A stretch of 64,000 bases of DNA from a virus. The translations under genes were made by a program, and so were the position numbers. The stretch is from positions 1 to 64,000 of the IMG/VR virus record IMGVR_UViG_3300021181_000010; one strand, written 5' to 3'. The notes beneath the pieces were generated by a model, which did not search any database, had not been told where the DNA came from, and was given only the letters and a program-made list of their open reading frames with translations. Shown here piece by piece: positions 19,687-53,054 of the stretch (positions are counted from its first letter, which is position 1; each line of letters begins with the position of its first letter).

Positions 19687-19761
19687 TGGAGCGAAGAGTG
19701 GGAGTCGAACCCACCTACACTTGATTGGCAACCAAGGGCACAGCCGCTATACCATCCTCGC
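19687..19761 (-). tRNA. tRNA-Gly (anticodon GCC)
   Basis: Manual fold: acceptor GCGAGGA/TCTTCGC, T-arm GTGGGTTCGACTCCCAC, anticodon stem CTTGG/TCAAG with loop TTGCCAA, encoded CCA. Confidence 0.75.
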
Positions 19762-20127
19762 ATACCTACGCTTTCGACCTTTGCCTCTATTCAGGCTACC
19801 ATAAGTCGGCGTCAAACTATCACAACAAGGACAAAGCAATTCCAAATTTGACTCTGATGAATCTTCCGAATTGCCATCGATATGATTCACAACGAGAGGG
19901 ATCTTCCCAGTCGTAGGATTCACTTCTGCCCACCCACACTTACAACATTTTGAGTCATACTTCTCGAACAAGTAGCGCCGCACATGAGCACTAATTTGTT
20001 CACTCACCATCGAGCCAGATTCCTCTCCCCGTTTCCACCTTGCGATGTACTCTGTGAATTGAAATCTCTGCTGACAGCGGTAGCTACAATAGACATCCGC
20101 TGCTCTTGTACAGGGCGTGCGTAGCAC
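19747..20127 (-). CDS. HNH endonuclease (between two tRNA-Gly genes)
   Basis: CCKCGW...NHIDGNSEDSSESNLELLCPCC: HNH zinc-finger nuclease motif; 3' end overlaps tRNA-Gly(GCC) by about 15 nt. Confidence 0.65.
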   Translation of the reverse strand: MLRTPCTRAADVYCSYRCQQRFQFTEYIARWKRGEESGSMVSEQISAHVRRYLFEKYDSKCCKCGWAEVNPTTGKIPLVVNHIDGNSEDSSESNLELLCPCCDSLTPTYGSLNRGKGRKRRYARMV

Positions 20128-20147
20128 CGTTTAAGACACGGCAAAAT

Positions 20148-20222
20148 TGGAGCGGGGTACGAGAGTCGAACTCGTCTACTCTTACTTGGAAGGCAAGGGC
20201 ACAGCCGCTATACCAACCCCGC
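20148..20222 (-). tRNA. tRNA-Gly (anticodon TCC)
   Basis: Acceptor GCGGGGT/ACCCCGC, T-arm ACGAGTTCGACTCTCGT, anticodon loop CTTCCAA, CCA encoded; D-arm nearly identical to tRNA-Gly(GCC). Confidence 0.75.
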
Positions 20223-20230
20223 AATAAAAT

Positions 20231-20542
20231 CTATTTAGCACTGGACAAAACGACCGGCATCAAAGAGATTTGCCGCCAGATCGCAAGGATATTCCAGGCG
20301 ACCAACACTAGAAATGCAATGTTGATCTTGGTCAGCTTGTTTCCTCGAAGATACCAGACGGTTCCGAAGACGATCCCAAACACTTTTACGAGAGCCAAAC
20401 TGACGACCGGCGAGAACAAATGCAAAAGCATACGAACAGCCGGGTTACCTTCTTGGACGCCAATTGCAAGAAAAAGCAGAGTGGAAGCGATGTCTGCCAC
20501 CTGGAGAATCACGAAGAGCGTCAAGCTGTTCATGAGGACCAT
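20231..20542 (-). CDS. Small membrane protein
   Basis: 103 aa, three hydrophobic segments. Confidence 0.4.
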   Translation of the reverse strand: MVLMNSLTLFVILQVADIASTLLFLAIGVQEGNPAVRMLLHLFSPVVSLALVKVFGIVFGTVWYLRGNKLTKINIAFLVLVAWNILAIWRQISLMPVVLSSAK

Positions 20543-20573
20543 AGTACCAAAACAAAGGGTCTATGTCAAGAGC

Positions 20574-20789
20574 CTACTTGATCCATCGAGCGGCTGGCTT
20601 TGGATGGGAATCCCGATATTGTCTGCGCCACTCAGCTTCATCTGCATCCGTCGCTGGCTTCATGACAACGTTTGTGCATCCGCAGACGTTCAGAAAACAT
20701 CCGCCAGCGATCAACGTCTTTCGAGCTTCGTCCAGCGAATGGATCAAATCTGGCTGATCACGTCCAGAAACTTCAATCAAAAATTTCAT
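20574..20789 (-). CDS. Hypothetical protein (start adjusted to MKFLIEV)
   Basis: ATGA start/stop overlap with upstream membrane ORF at 20786-20789. Confidence 0.35.
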   Translation of the reverse strand: MKFLIEVSGRDQPDLIHSLDEARKTLIAGGCFLNVCGCTNVVMKPATDADEAEWRRQYRDSHPKPAARWIK

Positions 20790-20986
20790 GGCTCTCGCTT
20801 TCGCAAACCCAATGTGAGAAAATGTCCCAGGCCAACCCACATGACTTTCGAGTAGTGAGCGTATCCCTTTGCATGAGTCCCCATGATCAAGTTCGTCAAA
20901 AAAGGGAGAACGAGCATGACCCCAAGAAATGCGAAGACCCAATACAAAATATGATAAAGTAGTAGGCCGAAGCCGATCTGAAGCAT
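20786..20986 (-). CDS. Small membrane protein (2 TM)
   Basis: 66-aa hydrophobic ORF translationally coupled to next gene. Confidence 0.35.
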   Translation of the reverse strand: MLQIGFGLLLYHILYWVFAFLGVMLVLPFLTNLIMGTHAKGYAHYSKVMWVGLGHFLTLGLRKREP

Positions 20987-21013
20987 AATAATCTCCAGTC
21001 CAAGAATACCTTA

Positions 21014-22003
21014 CTACTCACCGATTGTCAAGCATTTTTGCGCCGTGATGGAATTGAACGAAGCGGCTTTCTTCACGATGTATGTACCCTGCTCGGTAAC
21101 AATTTTTCCGGTCTTCTTGTTGGCCGTCTTGATGTAGCCGTAGTCGTGATACGTGCTGCCGAATTCCTTGAAGCGCAATTCGTACTGAACACGGAACGGG
21201 TCCAAGTAATCAGCGATAACATACTTCAATAGTTCATTGCCTTCTGCATCAAACACGTCCCAACGAACATGATTGTACATCGTGACGTTTAAAATGTCCT
21301 TGAACTTTTGCGGCGGTTCGTTAAACAGATTGACTTCTTTCACCACCGTCTTCACAATATCAATAGTAATGATGTCAAGAGCCGCCAAGTATTCGACCAC
21401 TTCGGTGCGAAAATCCTGGTTCTCTAACATGTCATCGACCACTTCACCGATCACTGGGATTCCAAGATTTGCAAATTTCTTCAAATAATGGATGCGGCTT
21501 GGCCGGTCGATCAGTGCCTCGGAGACATTCATCGTGTTGGCTGTGAGAACGAACAGACGCCTGGAAGGTGCATTCAGTGCTCCATCCATGATTGCCAGCA
21601 ATGCATCAGACTTTCCAAAAATTTTCTCGTACTCATCGATCATCACAACGACTTCCTGATCGATGTAACTGAGGAAGTTGATCAGATCCGCACCTTTGTT
21701 GTAGTCCTGCGCCACCAAGATTACAGGTAGCTTGGAGTAGTTGCAAATCTGTTCGGCTTGGACGGTCTTGCCAGTTCCCTTGAGGCCGCACAACATCACA
21801 CCAAGATTTCCCGTCTTGGCTTTGAACGATTTGATGACTCGATCAGGAAACCCATCACTACCGTAGAGCTTGTACGGAAAGACAAATTCTTCCTTCATCC
21901 TATCGAGATACATTGATCCAAAAGGACCGTATTCCAGAGTGTAGACGCCTACCGGCAATCTCTCTAGCTCTTCGCTCTTTTCAAAAAACCATTTTGTGAC
22001 CAC
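21014..22003 (-). CDS. AAA+ family ATPase
   Basis: Walker A GLKGTGKT, Walker B VVVMIDEYE, sensor-like TANT; 329 aa. Confidence 0.75.
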   Translation of the reverse strand: MVTKWFFEKSEELERLPVGVYTLEYGPFGSMYLDRMKEEFVFPYKLYGSDGFPDRVIKSFKAKTGNLGVMLCGLKGTGKTVQAEQICNYSKLPVILVAQDYNKGADLINFLSYIDQEVVVMIDEYEKIFGKSDALLAIMDGALNAPSRRLFVLTANTMNVSEALIDRPSRIHYLKKFANLGIPVIGEVVDDMLENQDFRTEVVEYLAALDIITIDIVKTVVKEVNLFNEPPQKFKDILNVTMYNHVRWDVFDAEGNELLKYVIADYLDPFRVQYELRFKEFGSTYHDYGYIKTANKKTGKIVTEQGTYIVKKAASFNSITAQKCLTIGE

Positions 22004-22020
22004 ATGTGTTCTATTCTCTC

Positions 22021-51889: not shown

Positions 51890-52135
51890 TTATGTTCCTT
51901 TTTTGACGCATCCACATTTTCTCCAATGTAGATGTCCATTACCATGTAGACACTTCACGCAACCGCACGAAGGACGCTGCCAAAGCTCATTGCCATGAAT
52001 GCATTTTACAGGCATCGGCGTCGGAAGTGCCTTGAAATGAAAAAATTTTCTGAAACGATCACGCATCGCCACAGTTCGAGGATCACCCAGGTCAATTTTA
52101 TTCAGATAATCAGCCATCAAAAGTGCAAAGGGCAT
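51890..52135 (-). CDS. Small Cys/His-rich protein
   Basis: 81 aa with CGCVKC...HGNGH...CGC repeats. Confidence 0.3.
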   Translation of the reverse strand: MPFALLMADYLNKIDLGDPRTVAMRDRFRKFFHFKALPTPMPVKCIHGNELWQRPSCGCVKCLHGNGHLHWRKCGCVKKGT

Positions 52136-52326
52136 TATTCCTCCGCTTGTGGACCCAGAAGAGCTTCGATCACAGCCGGATCATTGGTTGTGCTGATAAT
52201 CATATCGGGAATCTGACAACCACTTCCATCGTCATCTCGTGCATCAGGTTTGAAAACGAGAACAGCAGTGAGTCCATTTTGACCTGCTTCTTTGATCAGA
52301 TCGAGATATTCTTGATATGAGGTCAT
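52135..52326 (-). CDS. Small hypothetical protein
   Basis: 63-aa ORF. Confidence 0.3.
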   Translation of the reverse strand: MTSYQEYLDLIKEAGQNGLTAVLVFKPDARDDDGSGCQIPDMIISTTNDPAVIEALLGPQAEE

Positions 52327-52338
52327 CCATGATCGTAA

Positions 52339-52584
52339 TTATACAACAGGGATGAAAATAAATCCAGGCTCTTGATTAGTTATTTGTTGGTAGACGATCA
52401 GTGCTTCGTTTGGTGTCAAGGAGTCATCAACGTAAACGATAGGGCAAATTTCTTTGGCTTTCACAACATCATCAGAATGACAGATGATGTATTTAACGAG
52501 TGAAGGTGAGGCATTCATAAATTGTGGAGCCGGGGCCGAGAATCGAACTCGGGGCTGATCATTACAAGTGAACTGCTTTACCAC
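52339..52584 (-). CDS. Small hypothetical protein
   Basis: 81-aa ORF. Confidence 0.3.
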   Translation of the reverse strand: MVKQFTCNDQPRVRFSAPAPQFMNASPSLVKYIICHSDDVVKAKEICPIVYVDDSLTPNEALIVYQQITNQEPGFIFIPVV

Positions 52585-52598
52585 TAAGCGAACCCGGC
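52525..52598 (-). tRNA. tRNA-Thr (anticodon TGT)
   Basis: Acceptor GCCGGGT/CCCCGGC, D-arm GCTTAGTGGTAAAGCA, anticodon stem GTTCA/TGATC (one mismatch) loop CTTGTAA, T-arm CCGAGTTCGATTCTCGG, CCA. Confidence 0.65.
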
Positions 52599-52601
52599 GT
52601 A

Positions 52602-52805
52602 TTAGTCCTCAAATTCTACCGTACCATCATCGACATCACTGACAGCCATCGTAACCTGAACGAGCCGATCATTTTCATACCAACGAAGCGTAACAAGAGA
52701 ACCTTGAATGGTTACGCCTACGCCGGTCGAAACGAGCTTCTTCCGCATCGCTTCAATAATATCATTAGCGACTGGCTCAACGAATTTTGTTTTTCCTACC
52801 CACAT
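52602..52805 (-). CDS. Small hypothetical protein (start adjusted to MWVGKTKF)
   Basis: Listed N-terminus overlaps tRNA-Asp. Confidence 0.3.
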   Translation of the reverse strand: MWVGKTKFVEPVANDIIEAMRKKLVSTGVGVTIQGSLVTLRWYENDRLVQVTMAVSDVDDGTVEFED

Positions 52806-52821
52806 AAAGCACTTCAAAAAT

Positions 52822-52899
52822 TGGCGGGGTGTGTGGGGCACGATCCCACCATCTCCAACGTGACAGGCTGGCGTCTTAGACCATCTCGACCTACACCCC
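52822..52899 (-). tRNA. tRNA-Asp (anticodon GTC)
   Basis: Acceptor GGGGTGT/ACACCCC, anticodon stem CCAGC/GTTGG loop CTGTCAC (as in E. coli tRNA-Asp), T-arm GTGGGATCGTGCCCCAC (A at 54), CCA. Confidence 0.7.
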
Positions 52900-52979
52900 G
52901 TTTACGAACAAAATCAAAACTGCTACAACTAATCCAGCAATAATGCGAACCAAGGATCATTTTCTGGCATTTGAAAATT

Positions 52980-53054
52980 TGGCGGGGCGTAGGAGAATCG
53001 AACTCCCATTTTCTGATAGACAGTCAGATATCGTAGCCGTTGGAACAACGCCCC
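52980..53054 (-). tRNA. Second tRNA with GTC anticodon (Asp-like, atypical)
   Basis: Acceptor GGGGCGT/ACGCCCC, T-arm GGGAGTTCGATTCTCCT, anticodon stem TCTGA/TCAGA loop CTGTCTA (pyrimidine at position 37), poorly paired D-arm, CCA. Confidence 0.5.

What the first reader, a model, noticed from the sequence alone, without database searches (positions are those of the whole stretch)
19687..53054. Near-complete phage-encoded tRNA repertoire in three minus-strand islands
At least 23 tRNAs fold canonically, all on the minus strand: Gly-GCC, Gly-TCC; Ser-CGA, GGA, GCT, TGA; Leu-TAA, CAA, TAG, GAG, CAG (five of six Leu isoacceptors); Pro-CGG, TGG; Val-TAC; Met/Ile-CAT; His-GTG; Gln-CTG, TTG; Glu-CTC, TTC; Thr-TGT; Asp-GTC x2. 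tRNA-His carries an encoded G-1, and most carry an encoded CCA. Such density with full isoacceptor families is characteristic of jumbo or mega-phages that buffer translation against the host or against anticodon-nuclease defence. Having every Ser and Leu isoacceptor is striking because these codon families are frequent targets of tRNA-cleaving toxins.
Basis: seen in the sequence. Interest (0 to 1): 0.6.

Follow-up and report, generated by a model that had tools for sequence, protein, structure and literature searches.

The report
Giant-phage tRNA array with tRNA mimics
A 404-kb T4-like phage carries 25 genuine tRNA genes threaded between small genes, which is normal for giant phages; the unexpected part is a conserved family of about seven tRNA-mimicking, Y-RNA-like small RNAs among them.

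Summary
ARAGORN minus-strand tRNAs at the stated coordinates, and Rfam adds a 25th (a second CAT tRNA). That gives 22 anticodons for 11 amino acids. 22 of 25 have an encoded CCA, and tRNA-His has G-1/C73.

The window comes from a 404,282-bp metagenomic contig with T4-type baseplate genes, so the "jumbo phage" reading is right. "Near-complete" is not shown. Nine amino acids are missing, only about 50% of the window's codons are covered, and no tRNA lies within about 9 kb (left) or 20 kb (right) of the array.

The array is inherited. Four related phages keep the same anticodon order, although counterpart tRNAs are only about 69% identical and show massive compensatory stem changes. tRNAs sit flush between small same-strand ORFs, with conserved AAGUUU|tRNA|AAWUUU flanks. 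This fits a T4-style polycistronic precursor cut by host RNases.

A phage IF3, an R2K ATP-grasp ligase and an RNA ligase lie nearby, so I read the whole as a translation-autonomy module. The anticodon-nuclease argument is untested.

Unexpected: seven circularly permuted tRNA-like RNAs with a covarying Y-RNA-type closing stem sit inside the islands. They are conserved in sibling phages and fall below Rfam's YrlA threshold.

Overall this is a new member of a known kind, with one lead worth following.

The parts
19687..19761 (-). tRNA-Gly(GCC), U73, encoded CCA
   Evidence: ARAGORN; Rfam 45.6 bits; syntenic in L010/L011
20148..20222 (-). tRNA-Gly(TCC), encoded CCA
   Evidence: Rfam 46.8 bits; 83% identical to the L010/L011 counterpart
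26634..26721 (-). tRNA-Ser(CGA), class II, G73, CCA; next ORF's ATG at +7
   Evidence: Rfam only as tRNA-Sec-like, 32.8 bits; syntenic in L010/L011/L036/L087
28027..28117 (-). tRNA-Ser(GGA), CCA
   Evidence: Rfam 40.9 bits
28328..28418 (-). tRNA-Ser(GCT), CCA; ATG at +7
   Evidence: Rfam 49.9 bits
30619..30703 (-). tRNA-Leu(TAA), A73, CCA; ATG at +7
   Evidence: Rfam 48.7 bits; covariation
30926..31011 (-). tRNA-Leu(CAA), CCA; ATG at +7
   Evidence: Rfam 55.9 bits
31539..31622 (-). tRNA-Leu(TAG), CCA; unusual T loop UGCGAAU
   Evidence: Rfam 49.9 bits
32729..32814 (-). tRNA-Leu(GAG), CCA
   Evidence: Rfam 49.6 bits
32849..32925 (-). tRNA-Pro(CGG), C1-G72/A73, no encoded CCA
   Evidence: Rfam 48.4 bits
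33106..33197 (-). tRNA-Ser(TGA), CCA; ATG at +6
   Evidence: Rfam tRNA-Sec-like 39.4 bits
33568..33729 (-). U0: permuted tRNA-like / Y-RNA-like RNA. Order: 10-bp closing stem, 9-bp upper stem, UUAUC, V hairpin, T arm, acceptor-like hairpin, Leu-type D arm
   Evidence: ortholog L087:15065-15221; 18/21 identical to the human Y4 RNA 5' arm; no Rfam hit
33849..33930 (-). tRNA-Leu(CAG), no encoded CCA. Its syntenic counterpart in L087 differs at three aligned positions and reads CAA
   Evidence: Rfam 51.5 bits; alignment A3
34020..34091 (-). tRNA-Pro(TGG) copy, probably degenerate (no Rfam hit, no CCA, aberrant T and D loops)
34097..34172 (-). tRNA-Pro(TGG), CCA
   Evidence: Rfam 47.8 bits
42212..42357 (-). 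U4: permuted tRNA-like / Y-RNA-like RNA
   Evidence: Rfam YrlA 40 bits (gathering score 69); ortholog L093:1261-1406
42366..42495 (-). U3: permuted tRNA-like RNA (Gln/Glu-type D arm)
42504..42672 (-). U2: permuted tRNA-like RNA
   Evidence: orthologs L087:8895-9059 and L093:949-1115
42871..43025 (-). U1: permuted tRNA-like RNA
   Evidence: Rfam YrlA 27.7 bits; ortholog L093:474-621 (YrlA 35.7 bits)
43126..43202 (-). tRNA-Val(TAC), CCA
   Evidence: Rfam 65 bits; syntenic in L087
43208..43284 (-). second CAT tRNA (U1xU72 mismatch, CCA); identity Met, Ile2 or initiator-like unresolved
   Evidence: Rfam 39.6 bits; ARAGORN only at -ps90
43803..43879 (-). tRNA(CAT), elongator-type (U1-A72, no GGG/CCC in the anticodon stem), CCA
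   Evidence: Rfam 62.1 bits
43889..43967 (-). U6 (short): closing stem with GCCGAAG motif and GGUUAUC, no tRNA-like core; probable family member
   Evidence: motif and pairing; ortholog L087:7410-7487 (20.4 bits). The R1 model does not detect it in the window.
44000..44134 (-). U5: permuted tRNA-like RNA (T arm kept, D arm weak)
   Evidence: ortholog L087:7201-7332
47550..47623 (-). tRNA-His(GTG), G-1 encoded, C73, CCA
   Evidence: Rfam 57.9 bits; flank
47857..47930 (-). tRNA-Gln(CTG), U1-A72/G73, CCA; ATG at +7
   Evidence: Rfam 53.1 bits
48825..48898 (-). tRNA-Gln(TTG), CCA
   Evidence: Rfam 57.9 bits
48910..48983 (-). tRNA-Glu(CTC), CCA
   Evidence: Rfam 54.7 bits
50008..50082 (-). tRNA-Glu(TTC), CCA
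   Evidence: Rfam 64.3 bits
52525..52598 (-). tRNA-Thr(TGT), CCA; ATG at +7
   Evidence: Rfam 53.7 bits
52822..52899 (-). tRNA-Asp(GTC), G73, CCA
   Evidence: Rfam 47 bits
52980..53054 (-). tRNA-Asp(GTC) second copy, with U at position 37 of the anticodon loop (CUGUCUA)
   Evidence: Rfam 49.6 bits
40025..40564 (-). phage translation initiation factor IF3 (context: translation module)
   Evidence: Pfam IF3_N 85 bits + IF3_C 101 bits; phrog_9787; 62-63% identical to Bryobacterales IF3
47935..48495 (-). HTH-HNH homing-endonuclease-like gene between Gln tRNAs (context)
   Evidence: Pfam HNH_3 E=4.6e-7
31874..32758 (-). HNH endonuclease-like gene between Leu tRNAs (context; weak)
   Evidence: Pfam HNH/HNH_3 E about 7e-4, below the curated cut-off
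43402..43800 (-). 132-aa ORF starting 3 nt after the tRNA(CAT) CCA. HNH-like motif (HH..N..CANCH) seen by eye only. The Met-ORF-CAT segment is absent from sibling L087.
   Evidence: no Pfam hit

Best explanation
This is a vertically inherited set of functional, bacterial-type tRNA genes in a roughly 404-kb T4-like jumbo phage, probably of Acidobacteriota.

Inferred layout and processing: the tRNAs are not a compact cluster. They are threaded, all on one strand, between small early-type ORFs. They are most likely made, as in phage T4, from long polycistronic precursors. Host RNase P would cut after a conserved U-rich AAGUUU leader. An RNase E-type cut in the conserved AAWUUU trailer just after the encoded CCA would release tRNAs and mRNA segments together.

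Inferred function: the phage carries whole isoacceptor families (Leu x5, Ser x4, Gln x2, Glu x2, Gly x2, Pro x2), including readers of codons it rarely uses. So the set looks like a wholesale supply of decoding capacity that keeps phage translation going when the host tRNA pool is diluted, degraded or attacked, rather than a patch for a few rare codons. It would act together with the phage's own IF3, R2K peptide ligase and RNA ligase.

Shown: the genes, their fold, identity elements, synteny, covariation and flank motifs. Inferred: co-transcription, the processing enzymes, use in translation and the selective benefit.
For: Genes are real: ARAGORN 24 + Rfam 25th. Bacterial identity elements are present: His G-1/C73, Pro C1-G72/A73, Gln U1-A72/G73, Leu A73 and Ser G73 with long variable arms, Gly U73.

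Phage and size: 404,282-bp contig with a gp5/gp6/gp8/gp25 baseplate. gp6 is at most 40% identical to any GenBank phage.

Inheritance: the anticodon order Pro-Pro-Leu(CAG)-Ser(TGA)-Leu(GAG)-Leu(TAG)-Leu(CAA)-Leu(TAA)-Ser(GCT)-Ser(GGA)-Ser(CGA)-[MVP-like gene]-Gly(TCC)-Gly(GCC) recurs, apart from duplicate copies and a moved Pro-CGG, in L011 and L036, partly in L010, and in L087. L087 also keeps ligase-Glu-Glu-Gln-Gln-His...Val...IF3.

Selection on fold: counterpart tRNAs average 69% identity. 260 of 654 stem pairs are changed on both sides and 10 are broken. An independent RNAalifold run on 17 Leu tRNAs finds compensatory changes in 17 of 20 pairs.

Processing signals: downstream consensus A-A-W-U-U-U and upstream U at -1 and -3 occur in the window and in relatives. 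Terminator-like sites are depleted, 10 against 19 expected. The upstream stop codon lies 3-10 nt before many tRNAs, and the next ATG lies at +3..+8 in 8 of 25 (P=6e-5).

T4 precedent: one roughly 1.75-kb transcript is the precursor of eight tRNAs, species I/II RNAs and segB mRNA (PMC2330249).

Translation context: IF3 and R2K and an RNA ligase just outside the window. These are the same gene set reported for huge and 'group 2.2' jumbo phages (PMC7162821; PMC7824862).

Breadth: readers of rare codons such as CUA (5%) and GGG (3-10%) are included.
Against: There are no expression, processing or aminoacylation data. Only 11 amino acids and about 50% of codons are covered in the window, and the rest of the 404-kb genome could not be read, so 'autonomy' may be partial. 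The host is only inferred, so neither codon compensation nor anticodon-loop divergence from host tRNAs could be tested. One gene (34020-34091) looks degenerate and three lack CCA. The RNase E assignment of the AAWUUU trailer rests on my recollection of the RN|WUU consensus, not on a test here.
Confidence: 0.7

Rival explanations
1. Codon-usage compensation. The phage (46% GC) infects a GC-richer host and carries tRNAs mainly to read A/U-ending codons that the host decodes poorly.
For: Window GC is 44-50%. The inferred host lineage, Bryobacterales/Acidobacteriota, is GC-rich as far as I recall. U34 tRNAs (TAA, TGA, TTG, TTC, TGT, TAC, TCC, TGG) are all present.
Against: The set also contains C34 and G34 tRNAs for G/C-ending codons (CAG, GAG, CGG, CGA, CTC, CTG, GCC, GGA). 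It also contains readers of codons the phage itself rarely uses, CUA 5% and GGG 3-10%. Whole families, rather than selected members, are conserved across relatives. In mycobacteriophages, codon frequency did not differ between codons with and without a phage tRNA (PMC10264068).
Confidence: 0.3
2. Anti-defence. The tRNAs are nuclease-resistant replacements, or bait, for host tRNAs cut by anticodon nucleases or other tRNA-targeting immune effectors.
For: tRNA bodies evolve fast while anticodons and order are kept. That would fit an arms race over recognition elements. An RNA ligase lies 4-5 kb past the window end, and Y-RNA-like tRNA mimics sit inside the islands. One Asp copy has an unusual U37. 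Phage tRNAs do neutralise PARIS, retron and VapC-type systems in other hosts (PMC11464382, PMC11555353, PMC10264068).
Against: No host tRNA set was available for comparison. No known nuclease target (Lys, Tyr, Asn, Arg, fMet) is in the window. The full Ser-NGA set is the opposite of the avoidance seen in mycobacteriophages. Rapid drift could equally reflect relaxed constraint.
Confidence: 0.3
3. tRNA punctuation. The tRNAs serve chiefly as RNA-processing landmarks that cut a long early transcript into individual, nearly leaderless mRNAs, as in animal mitochondria. Decoding would be secondary.
For: 8 of 25 tRNAs are followed at +3..+8 by an ATG that opens an ORF of at least 25 codons, against a 5.8% background (P=6e-5). 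These ORFs have no Shine-Dalgarno sequence, whereas other downstream ORFs do. The same junctions occur in relatives. Upstream stop codons abut the tRNA 5' ends. A phage IF3, the factor that discriminates leaderless starts, is encoded nearby.
Against: Conservation of specific anticodons, identity elements and CCA ends would be unnecessary for mere processing sites. 17 of 25 tRNAs lack such a junction. Several tRNAs are adjacent to each other with no ORF between them.
Confidence: 0.15
4. Non-functional or foreign. The tRNAs are decaying pseudogenes, recent captures from the host, or bacterial DNA mis-assembled into a phage contig.
For: One degenerate copy (34020-34091), and three genes without CCA.
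Against: The order is conserved in five independent assemblies from different samples. Compensatory evolution is seen. Phage genes lie on both sides and between the tRNAs. Sequences are far from each other and from generic bacterial tRNAs.
Confidence: 0.03

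Closest known systems
Phage T4 tRNA gene region (eight tRNAs + species I and II stable RNAs + segB homing endonuclease, one precursor transcript; PMC2330249)
   Same: T4-type myovirus. Same-strand tRNA genes are mixed with ORFs, homing-endonuclease genes and extra small stable RNAs. Maturation from a polycistronic precursor is the natural model.
   Different: About 33 kb and 25 tRNAs here, against about 1.75 kb and 8 tRNAs in T4. 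The endonucleases are HNH-type rather than GIY-YIG. Isoacceptor families are complete. The extra RNAs are permuted tRNA-like and Y-RNA-like; I could not compare them with the T4 species I/II sequences.
tRNA arrays of huge/jumbo phages (Al-Shayeb 2020, PMC7162821: up to 67 tRNAs; XacN1, PMC5852040: 56 tRNAs for all 20 amino acids; 'group 2.2' jumbo phages with IF3 and R2K, PMC7824862)
   Same: Genome over 200 kb, tens of tRNAs that differ from typical bacterial ones, and co-occurrence with IF3, an R2K ATP-grasp ligase and RNA ligases.
   Different: No close relative in GenBank phages (no megablast hit; gp6 at most 40% identity). tRNAs are dispersed among ORFs and grouped by amino acid. Only 11 amino acids are seen in the part available.
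YrlA / bacterial Y RNAs (Rfam RF02553; Chen et al. 2014, PMC4201824)
   Same: The U0-U6 units have the YrlA order: closing stem, YUAY, V element, T arm, acceptor-like hairpin, D arm. The closing stem shows the Ro60-site geometry (helix, bulged C, G.U/A-U). GCCG is invariant, with a full GCCGAAG in three units. Sub-threshold YrlA hits score 40, 35.7 and 27.7 bits.
   Different: All are below the gathering score of 69. No Ro60/TROVE gene lies within the window or the flanks fetched beyond its ends, whereas YrlA lies within 4 kb of Ro60. There are seven copies per locus, interleaved with tRNAs. Some copies lack the tRNA-like core.
Mycobacteriophage cluster C1 tRNA sets (van den Berg 2023, PMC10264068)
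   Same: Large phage tRNA sets that codon usage does not explain; proposed to keep translation going under tRNA depletion.
   Different: Those phages avoid Ser-GGA/TGA/CGA, while this phage keeps all of them.

Membership tests
Canonical bacterial-type tRNA genes | Cloverleaf recognised by independent tRNA finders | tested here: met
   ARAGORN 24/25 at default. Rfam RF00005 above 29 bits for 22, and the tRNA-Sec-like model for 2 class II Ser. One copy (34020-34091) has ARAGORN support only.
Canonical bacterial-type tRNA genes | Amino-acid identity elements consistent with the anticodon | tested here: met
   His G-1/C73; Pro C1-G72/A73; Gln U1-A72/G73; Leu A73 and Ser G73 with long variable arm; Gly U73; Asp G73; Val A73. 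I applied the identity rules from general knowledge of E. coli tRNAs.
Canonical bacterial-type tRNA genes | Stems maintained by compensatory substitutions among homologues | tested here: met
   17 of 20 pairs are compensated in 17 Leu tRNAs. 260 double changes against 10 breaks in 654 stem pairs (partly circular, because both partners were ARAGORN-selected).
Canonical bacterial-type tRNA genes | Expressed, processed, aminoacylated | not testable with these tools
   Needs tRNA-seq or Northern blots of infected cells.
Jumbo/huge-phage tRNA arrays | Phage genome over 200 kb with phage hallmark genes | tested here: met
   Contig of 404,282 bp; T4-type baseplate; sibling contigs of 370-400 kb.
   11 amino acids and about 50% of codons in the window. 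No tRNAs in the flanks fetched.
T4-type tRNA operon | Same-strand tRNAs co-located with homing endonuclease genes and small stable RNAs | tested here: met
   HNH genes; U0-U6 RNAs; all on the minus strand.
T4-type tRNA operon | Single polycistronic precursor processed by RNase P and RNase E | not testable with these tools
   Only indirect evidence: conserved AAGUUU and AAWUUU flanks and terminator depletion.
YrlA (Rfam RF02553), for the U0-U6 units | Score at or above the Rfam gathering threshold (69 bits) | tested here: not met
   40, 27.7 and 35.7 bits; U0 has no hit at all.
YrlA (Rfam RF02553), for the U0-U6 units | tRNA-like domain in the order T arm, acceptor-like stem, D arm, preceded by YUAY | tested here: met
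   GGUUAUC (= YUAY) is present in most units and diverges to CGUUAUC, GAUUAUC or UGUUCUC in others. The short units lack the core.
YrlA (Rfam RF02553), for the U0-U6 units | 5' GNCGAAN0-1G motif (putative Ro60 contact) | tested here: inconclusive
   GCCG is invariant. The full GCCGAAG occurs in window U6, L087 U6 and L004:14058-14212. The others have GCCGUUG, GCCGUAG or GCCGCCU.
YrlA (Rfam RF02553), for the U0-U6 units | Encoded within about 4 kb of a Ro60/TROVE gene on the same strand | tested here: not met
   No TROVE hit among the ORFs scanned, including all minus-strand ORFs over 250 aa between 15 and 64 kb, nor in the called-gene tables of the source contig and siblings. The remainder of the genome is unseen.
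Nuclease-evading phage tRNAs (van den Berg 2023) | Anticodon-loop differences from host tRNAs at known cleavage sites | not testable with these tools
   The host genome is not identified.
Nuclease-evading phage tRNAs (van den Berg 2023) | Avoidance of tRNAs that are cut within the anticodon (Ser-NGA) | tested here: not met
   Ser-GGA, Ser-TGA and Ser-CGA are all present and conserved, against the avoidance described in PMC10264068.

The most novel reading that the evidence does not exclude
The tRNA islands hold a previously undescribed, multi-copy family of phage Y-RNA-like tRNA mimics: seven in the window, with orthologues in at least two sibling phages and two divergent copies in a distant phage. 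Each is a circularly permuted tRNA core (V hairpin, T arm, acceptor-like hairpin, D arm) closed by a two-part stem with Ro60-site geometry. U0 matches the human Y4 RNA 5' arm at 18 of 21 bases. They lie next to no Ro60 gene.

They may work with the tRNA array, for example by recruiting a host or distantly encoded Ro60/PNPase or RNA-repair machinery, or by acting as decoys for tRNA-binding defence or processing enzymes. A more speculative link is to the full-length Major-Vault-Protein homologue encoded in the same region.
Probability: 0.35. Interest if true: 0.7.

Novelty: new member of a known kind. Interest (0 to 1): 0.45.

Why it matters
Large tRNA sets in giant phages are known, so the array itself mainly adds a well-documented example from an uncultured lineage, probably infecting Acidobacteria.

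Three things make it useful:
- It gives a clean natural experiment on phage tRNA evolution. Anticodon order is frozen while tRNA bodies diverge to about 69% identity, and there is a Leu CAG-to-CAA switch caught between sibling phages.
- Its conserved tRNA/ORF junctions make the T4-style model testable, in which tRNA processing also creates the mRNA ends.
- The embedded Y-RNA-like tRNA mimics could open a route to what Y RNAs and tRNA mimicry do in phage infection. That question is open even for bacterial YrlA.

Tried and rejected
- Megablast of 28 kb of the window against 50,697 phage records found nothing. Tandem Repeats Finder found nothing.
- Viral-contig scans with the DNA ligase, IF3 and R2K proteins returned only distant phages or nothing. 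Siblings came instead from the MVP-like protein and from IF3 homologues looked up by exact sequence.
- The 1636-aa ORF is not on record as such, because the real gene is 2261 aa and runs off the window.
- I rejected the extra low-threshold ARAGORN calls. Asp(ATC) 33651-33730 and 42956-43034 are parts of U0 and U1. Arg(CCG) 46712-46795 and Phe(GAA) 59377-59452 have 6-8 unpaired stem positions and no Rfam support, and the latter lies inside an ORF.
- I considered that the YrlA hits were junctions of tandem tRNAs, a known artefact noted in PMC4201824. I rejected this. The closing stem pairs within each unit (5.3 of 6 variable positions, against 3.3 for non-cognate pairs), U0 is solitary, and no flanking tRNA halves exist.
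- An exact-pattern scan of IMG/VR for the U signature found nothing. An nhmmer profile found no copies outside the siblings. A covariance model found two weak copies in L004.
- Rfam's metazoan Y_RNA model does not hit U0.
- PDB sequence search of the adjacent DUF6847 protein gave only an uncharacterised protein.
- The identity of the two CAT tRNAs (Met, Ile2 or initiator) could not be settled from sequence.

Full report
**1. Observation**

ARAGORN tRNA genes, all on the minus strand between 19687 and 53054.

Rfam support is as follows:
- RF00005 at gathering score confirms 19 and adds a gene at 43211-43284 with a CAT anticodon.
- With laxer filters, 22 score 39.6-65 bits as tRNA. Ser-CGA and Ser-TGA score best on the class-II-like tRNA-Sec model.
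- Pro-CGG reaches 48.4 bits in a local scan.
- Only Pro-TGG 34020-34091 has no Rfam support. It has aberrant T and D loops and no CCA, so it is probably a decaying duplicate.

The result is 25 genes, 22 anticodons and 11 amino acids. CCA is encoded in 22 of 25. tRNA-His has G at -1 opposite C73. Discriminator bases, first base pairs and long variable arms fit bacterial identity rules. All five Leu and all four Ser anticodons used by bacteria are present. The genes form four clusters, not three.

**2. What carries them**

No GenBank phage is similar at the DNA level. Bases 1-15225 encode T4-type baseplate proteins: gp5, gp25, gp6, a gp7-like protein, gp8 and a DUF4815 giant protein. gp6 is at most 40% identical to Methylophilales, Pelagibacter and cyanobacterial myoviruses.

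Exact-sequence look-ups place the window at about 241-305 kb of a 404,282-bp metagenomic contig. Sibling phages sit on contigs of 370-400 kb. The phage IF3 is 62-63% identical to cellular IF3s; the only ones carrying an organism name are Bryobacteraceae and Bryobacterales, so the host is probably an acidobacterium.

The 'jumbo phage' inference is therefore right. 'Near-complete' is not shown:
- Nine amino acids are missing.
- The tRNAs decode about 50% of the codons of the window's genes.
- No tRNA lies in the roughly 9 kb fetched beyond the right end or the roughly 5 kb beyond the left end.

**3. The array is ancestral and under selection**

Relatives were found through the MVP-like protein (L010, L011, L036; 67-70% protein identity) and through IF3 (L087; 84%). 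They keep the same order. The first block is Pro, Pro, Leu-CAG, Ser-TGA, Leu-GAG, Leu-TAG, Leu-CAA, Leu-TAA, Ser-GCT, Ser-GGA, Ser-CGA, [MVP-like gene], Gly-TCC, Gly-GCC. In L087 the order ligase, Glu-TTC, Glu-CTC, Gln-TTG, Gln-CTG, His ... Val ... DUF6847, IF3, R2K is also kept.

Despite this, positional counterparts are only 69% identical on average. The same-anticodon gene is the best match in 14 of 34 comparisons, whereas a same-amino-acid gene is the best match in 30 of 34.

Evidence for selection on fold:
- Of 654 acceptor, anticodon and T-stem pairs compared, 260 changed on both sides with pairing kept, and 10 broke. This count is partly circular because both partners were selected by ARAGORN.
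- An independent MAFFT/RNAalifold analysis of 17 Leu tRNAs gives 17 of 20 pairs with compensatory changes and almost no breaks.
- One counterpart pair, window 33849-33930 and L087:14869-14951, differs at three aligned positions, one of which turns anticodon CAG into CAA.

Grouping by amino acid, blurred orthology and this switch all point to isoacceptors arising and being exchanged by local duplication and anticodon mutation.

**4. Anatomy and likely expression**

The tRNAs are embedded in a one-strand run of small ORFs with few terminator-like sites, 10 against 19 expected.
- Upstream ORFs stop 3-10 nt before many tRNAs.
- The leader is U-rich, often AAGUUU, with U at -1 in 14 of 21 window genes and 27 of 36 genes in relatives.
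- The trailer after CCA is A-A-W-U-U-U in the window and in relatives.
- Eight of 25 tRNAs are followed at +3..+8 by an ATG opening an ORF of at least 25 codons, against a 5.8% background (P=6e-5). These ORFs lack a Shine-Dalgarno sequence, whereas more distant downstream starts have one.

In T4, one roughly 1.75-kb transcript is the precursor of eight tRNAs, the species I/II RNAs and segB mRNA (PMC2330249). The same logic at a larger scale is the simplest reading here. The assignment of the cuts to RNase P (U at -1) and RNase E (RN|WUU) rests on general knowledge and was not tested.

HNH-type endonuclease genes lie among the tRNAs. The Met-ORF-CAT segment at 43208-43879 is missing from sibling L087, which suggests endonuclease-linked turnover.

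**5. Function**

Whole families, including readers of codons the phage seldom uses (CUA 5%, GGG 3-10%), argue for a general supply of decoding capacity rather than a rare-codon patch. The neighbourhood points the same way:
- IF3.
- An R2K ATP-grasp peptide ligase.
- An ATP-dependent ligase.
- An RNA ligase 4-5 kb past the window.

These are the genes listed for huge phages and for 'group 2.2' jumbo phages (PMC7162821; PMC7824862).

The anticodon-nuclease idea remains possible: the tRNA bodies evolve fast, an RNA ligase is present, and tRNA mimics sit in the islands. But it is untested, and the specific Ser argument runs against the published avoidance pattern (PMC10264068).

**6. Unexpected: Y-RNA-like permuted tRNA mimics**

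Sub-threshold Rfam YrlA hits at 42224-42338 (40 bits, gathering score 69) and 42909-42988 led to a repeat family:
- U0: 33568-33729
- U1-U4: 42212-43025
- U5: 44000-44134
- a short U6: 43889-43967

Each unit reads, 5' to 3': closing-stem strand nnnnGAGC, then CCG..., GGUUAUC, a hairpin, T arm (GGUUCGAGUCC), an acceptor-like hairpin, D arm (GUAGCUCAnUGGUAGAGC)...AUUU, and closing-stem strand GUUCnnnn.

Evidence that the structure is real:
- The closing stem is paired in all members. The four variable pairs next to GAGC/GUUC differ between unit types but always match their own partner (100% paired, four pairs doubly compensated).
- Across 15 members from three phages, 5.3 of 6 variable positions pair with the cognate strand, against 3.3 for non-cognate strands.
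- A second, upper stem, the T arm and the acceptor-like hairpin also covary between orthologues.
- Orthologues sit at syntenic places in L087 and L093.
- A covariance model built on 12 members finds an untrained short copy in L087 (61 bits) and two divergent copies in the distant phage L004. These use a different closing-stem sequence but the same layout, and one carries an exact GCCGAAG motif.

The closing stem has the geometry of the Ro60 site of Y RNAs: helix, bulged C, then G.U/A-U. U0 matches the human Y4 RNA 5' arm at 18 of 21 bases. No other site in the window and none of 2000 shuffles reaches this.

Against formal YrlA membership:
- The scores are below threshold.
- The GNCGAA motif is complete in only three units.
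- No TROVE/Ro60 gene lies in the window or the flanks fetched beyond its ends. YrlA normally lies within 4 kb of Ro60 (PMC4201824).

A tandem-tRNA artefact is excluded by the within-unit covariation.

**7. Verdict**

The tRNA array is a new member of a known kind. The embedded Y-RNA-like tRNA mimics and the tRNA/ORF junctions are the leads worth following.

Noticed in passing
window 33568-33729, 42212-43025, 43889-44134 (minus strand); L087:7201-9059 and 15065-15221; L093:474-1406; L004:14058-14411: A family of about seven circularly permuted tRNA-like RNAs with a covarying Y-RNA-type closing stem. They are interleaved with the tRNAs and conserved in sibling phages. They score below the gathering threshold on Rfam YrlA, and no Ro60 gene lies nearby. 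U0 is 18/21 identical to the human Y4 RNA 5' arm.
   Followed up: yes
window 22906-25494 (-): An 862-aa ORF with Pfam MVP_shoulder and Vault_3 domains. It matches PDB Major Vault Protein (861 aa) over residues ~465-790 at E about 1e-14. Homologues occur in 53 metagenomic loci and in the 462-kb and 735-kb huge phages LR756500 and LR756501, but in no cultured phage. It is flanked by Ser and Gly tRNAs in this lineage.
   Followed up: partly
window 40025-40564 (-): A phage-encoded translation initiation factor IF3 (both domains). It is 84% identical in a 370-kb sibling phage and 62-63% identical to Bryobacterales IF3, which gives a host hint of Acidobacteriota.
   Followed up: yes
window 33849-33930 vs L087:14869-14951: Syntenic Leu tRNAs that differ at three aligned positions. 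One difference converts anticodon CAG to CAA, an in-situ isoacceptor switch between sibling phages.
   Followed up: partly
window, 3' ends of tRNAs at 26634, 28328, 30619, 30926, 33106, 43803, 47857, 52525: The next ORF's ATG lies 3-7 nt after the tRNA CCA (typically CCA-AAAUUU-AUG), with no Shine-Dalgarno sequence. This occurs for 8 of 25 tRNAs against a 5.8% background, and the same junctions occur in relatives. It suggests nearly leaderless mRNAs made by tRNA processing.
   Followed up: partly
window 43208-43879 (-): The segment tRNA(CAT) - 132-aa ORF with an HNH-like motif - second CAT tRNA (U1xU72 mismatch) is absent from sibling L087. This looks like an endonuclease-linked indel. The identity of the two CAT tRNAs is unresolved.
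   Followed up: partly
window 28120-28147 (-) and 22851-22880 (-): A perfect sigma-70 consensus (TTGACA-16-TATAAT) ends 2 nt before tRNA-Ser(GGA). A strong intrinsic terminator follows the MVP-like gene. Terminator-like sites are otherwise depleted across the array.
   Followed up: no
window 49214-49816 (-); L016-L033: A 2OG-Fe(II) oxygenase (AlkB-like) sits between Glu tRNAs. It has 46-66% identical homologues in at least 20 IMG/VR contigs, eight of them 340-524 kb long. Several lie next to large tRNA arrays, one with 20 tRNAs plus a tmRNA.
   Followed up: partly
window 38598-39392 (-), 37424-38593 (-), 41042-41548 (-): An R2K-clade ATP-grasp peptide ligase, a conserved 389-aa unknown protein and a DUF6847 protein stay next to IF3 and the U RNAs in sibling L087. 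In L093 the DUF6847 gene, IF3 and the 374-aa gene are kept, but no R2K gene was called. They are possible partners of the translation/RNA module.
   Followed up: no
L002:13854-15281 (about 3.9-5.3 kb beyond the window's right end): A 475-aa RNA ligase (PF09414), followed by IMPDH-like, cytidylyltransferase-like and 795-aa AAA proteins. This is relevant to tRNA repair.
   Followed up: no
window 53851-54690, 55544-56404, 56830-58692 (-): The phage encodes an ABC-transporter ATPase, a binding-protein-dependent permease component and a 620-aa OmpA-domain protein. These look like auxiliary transport or envelope genes.
   Followed up: no
window 52980-53054 (-): The second tRNA-Asp(GTC) copy has U instead of a purine at position 37 of the anticodon loop (CUGUCUA).
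   Followed up: no
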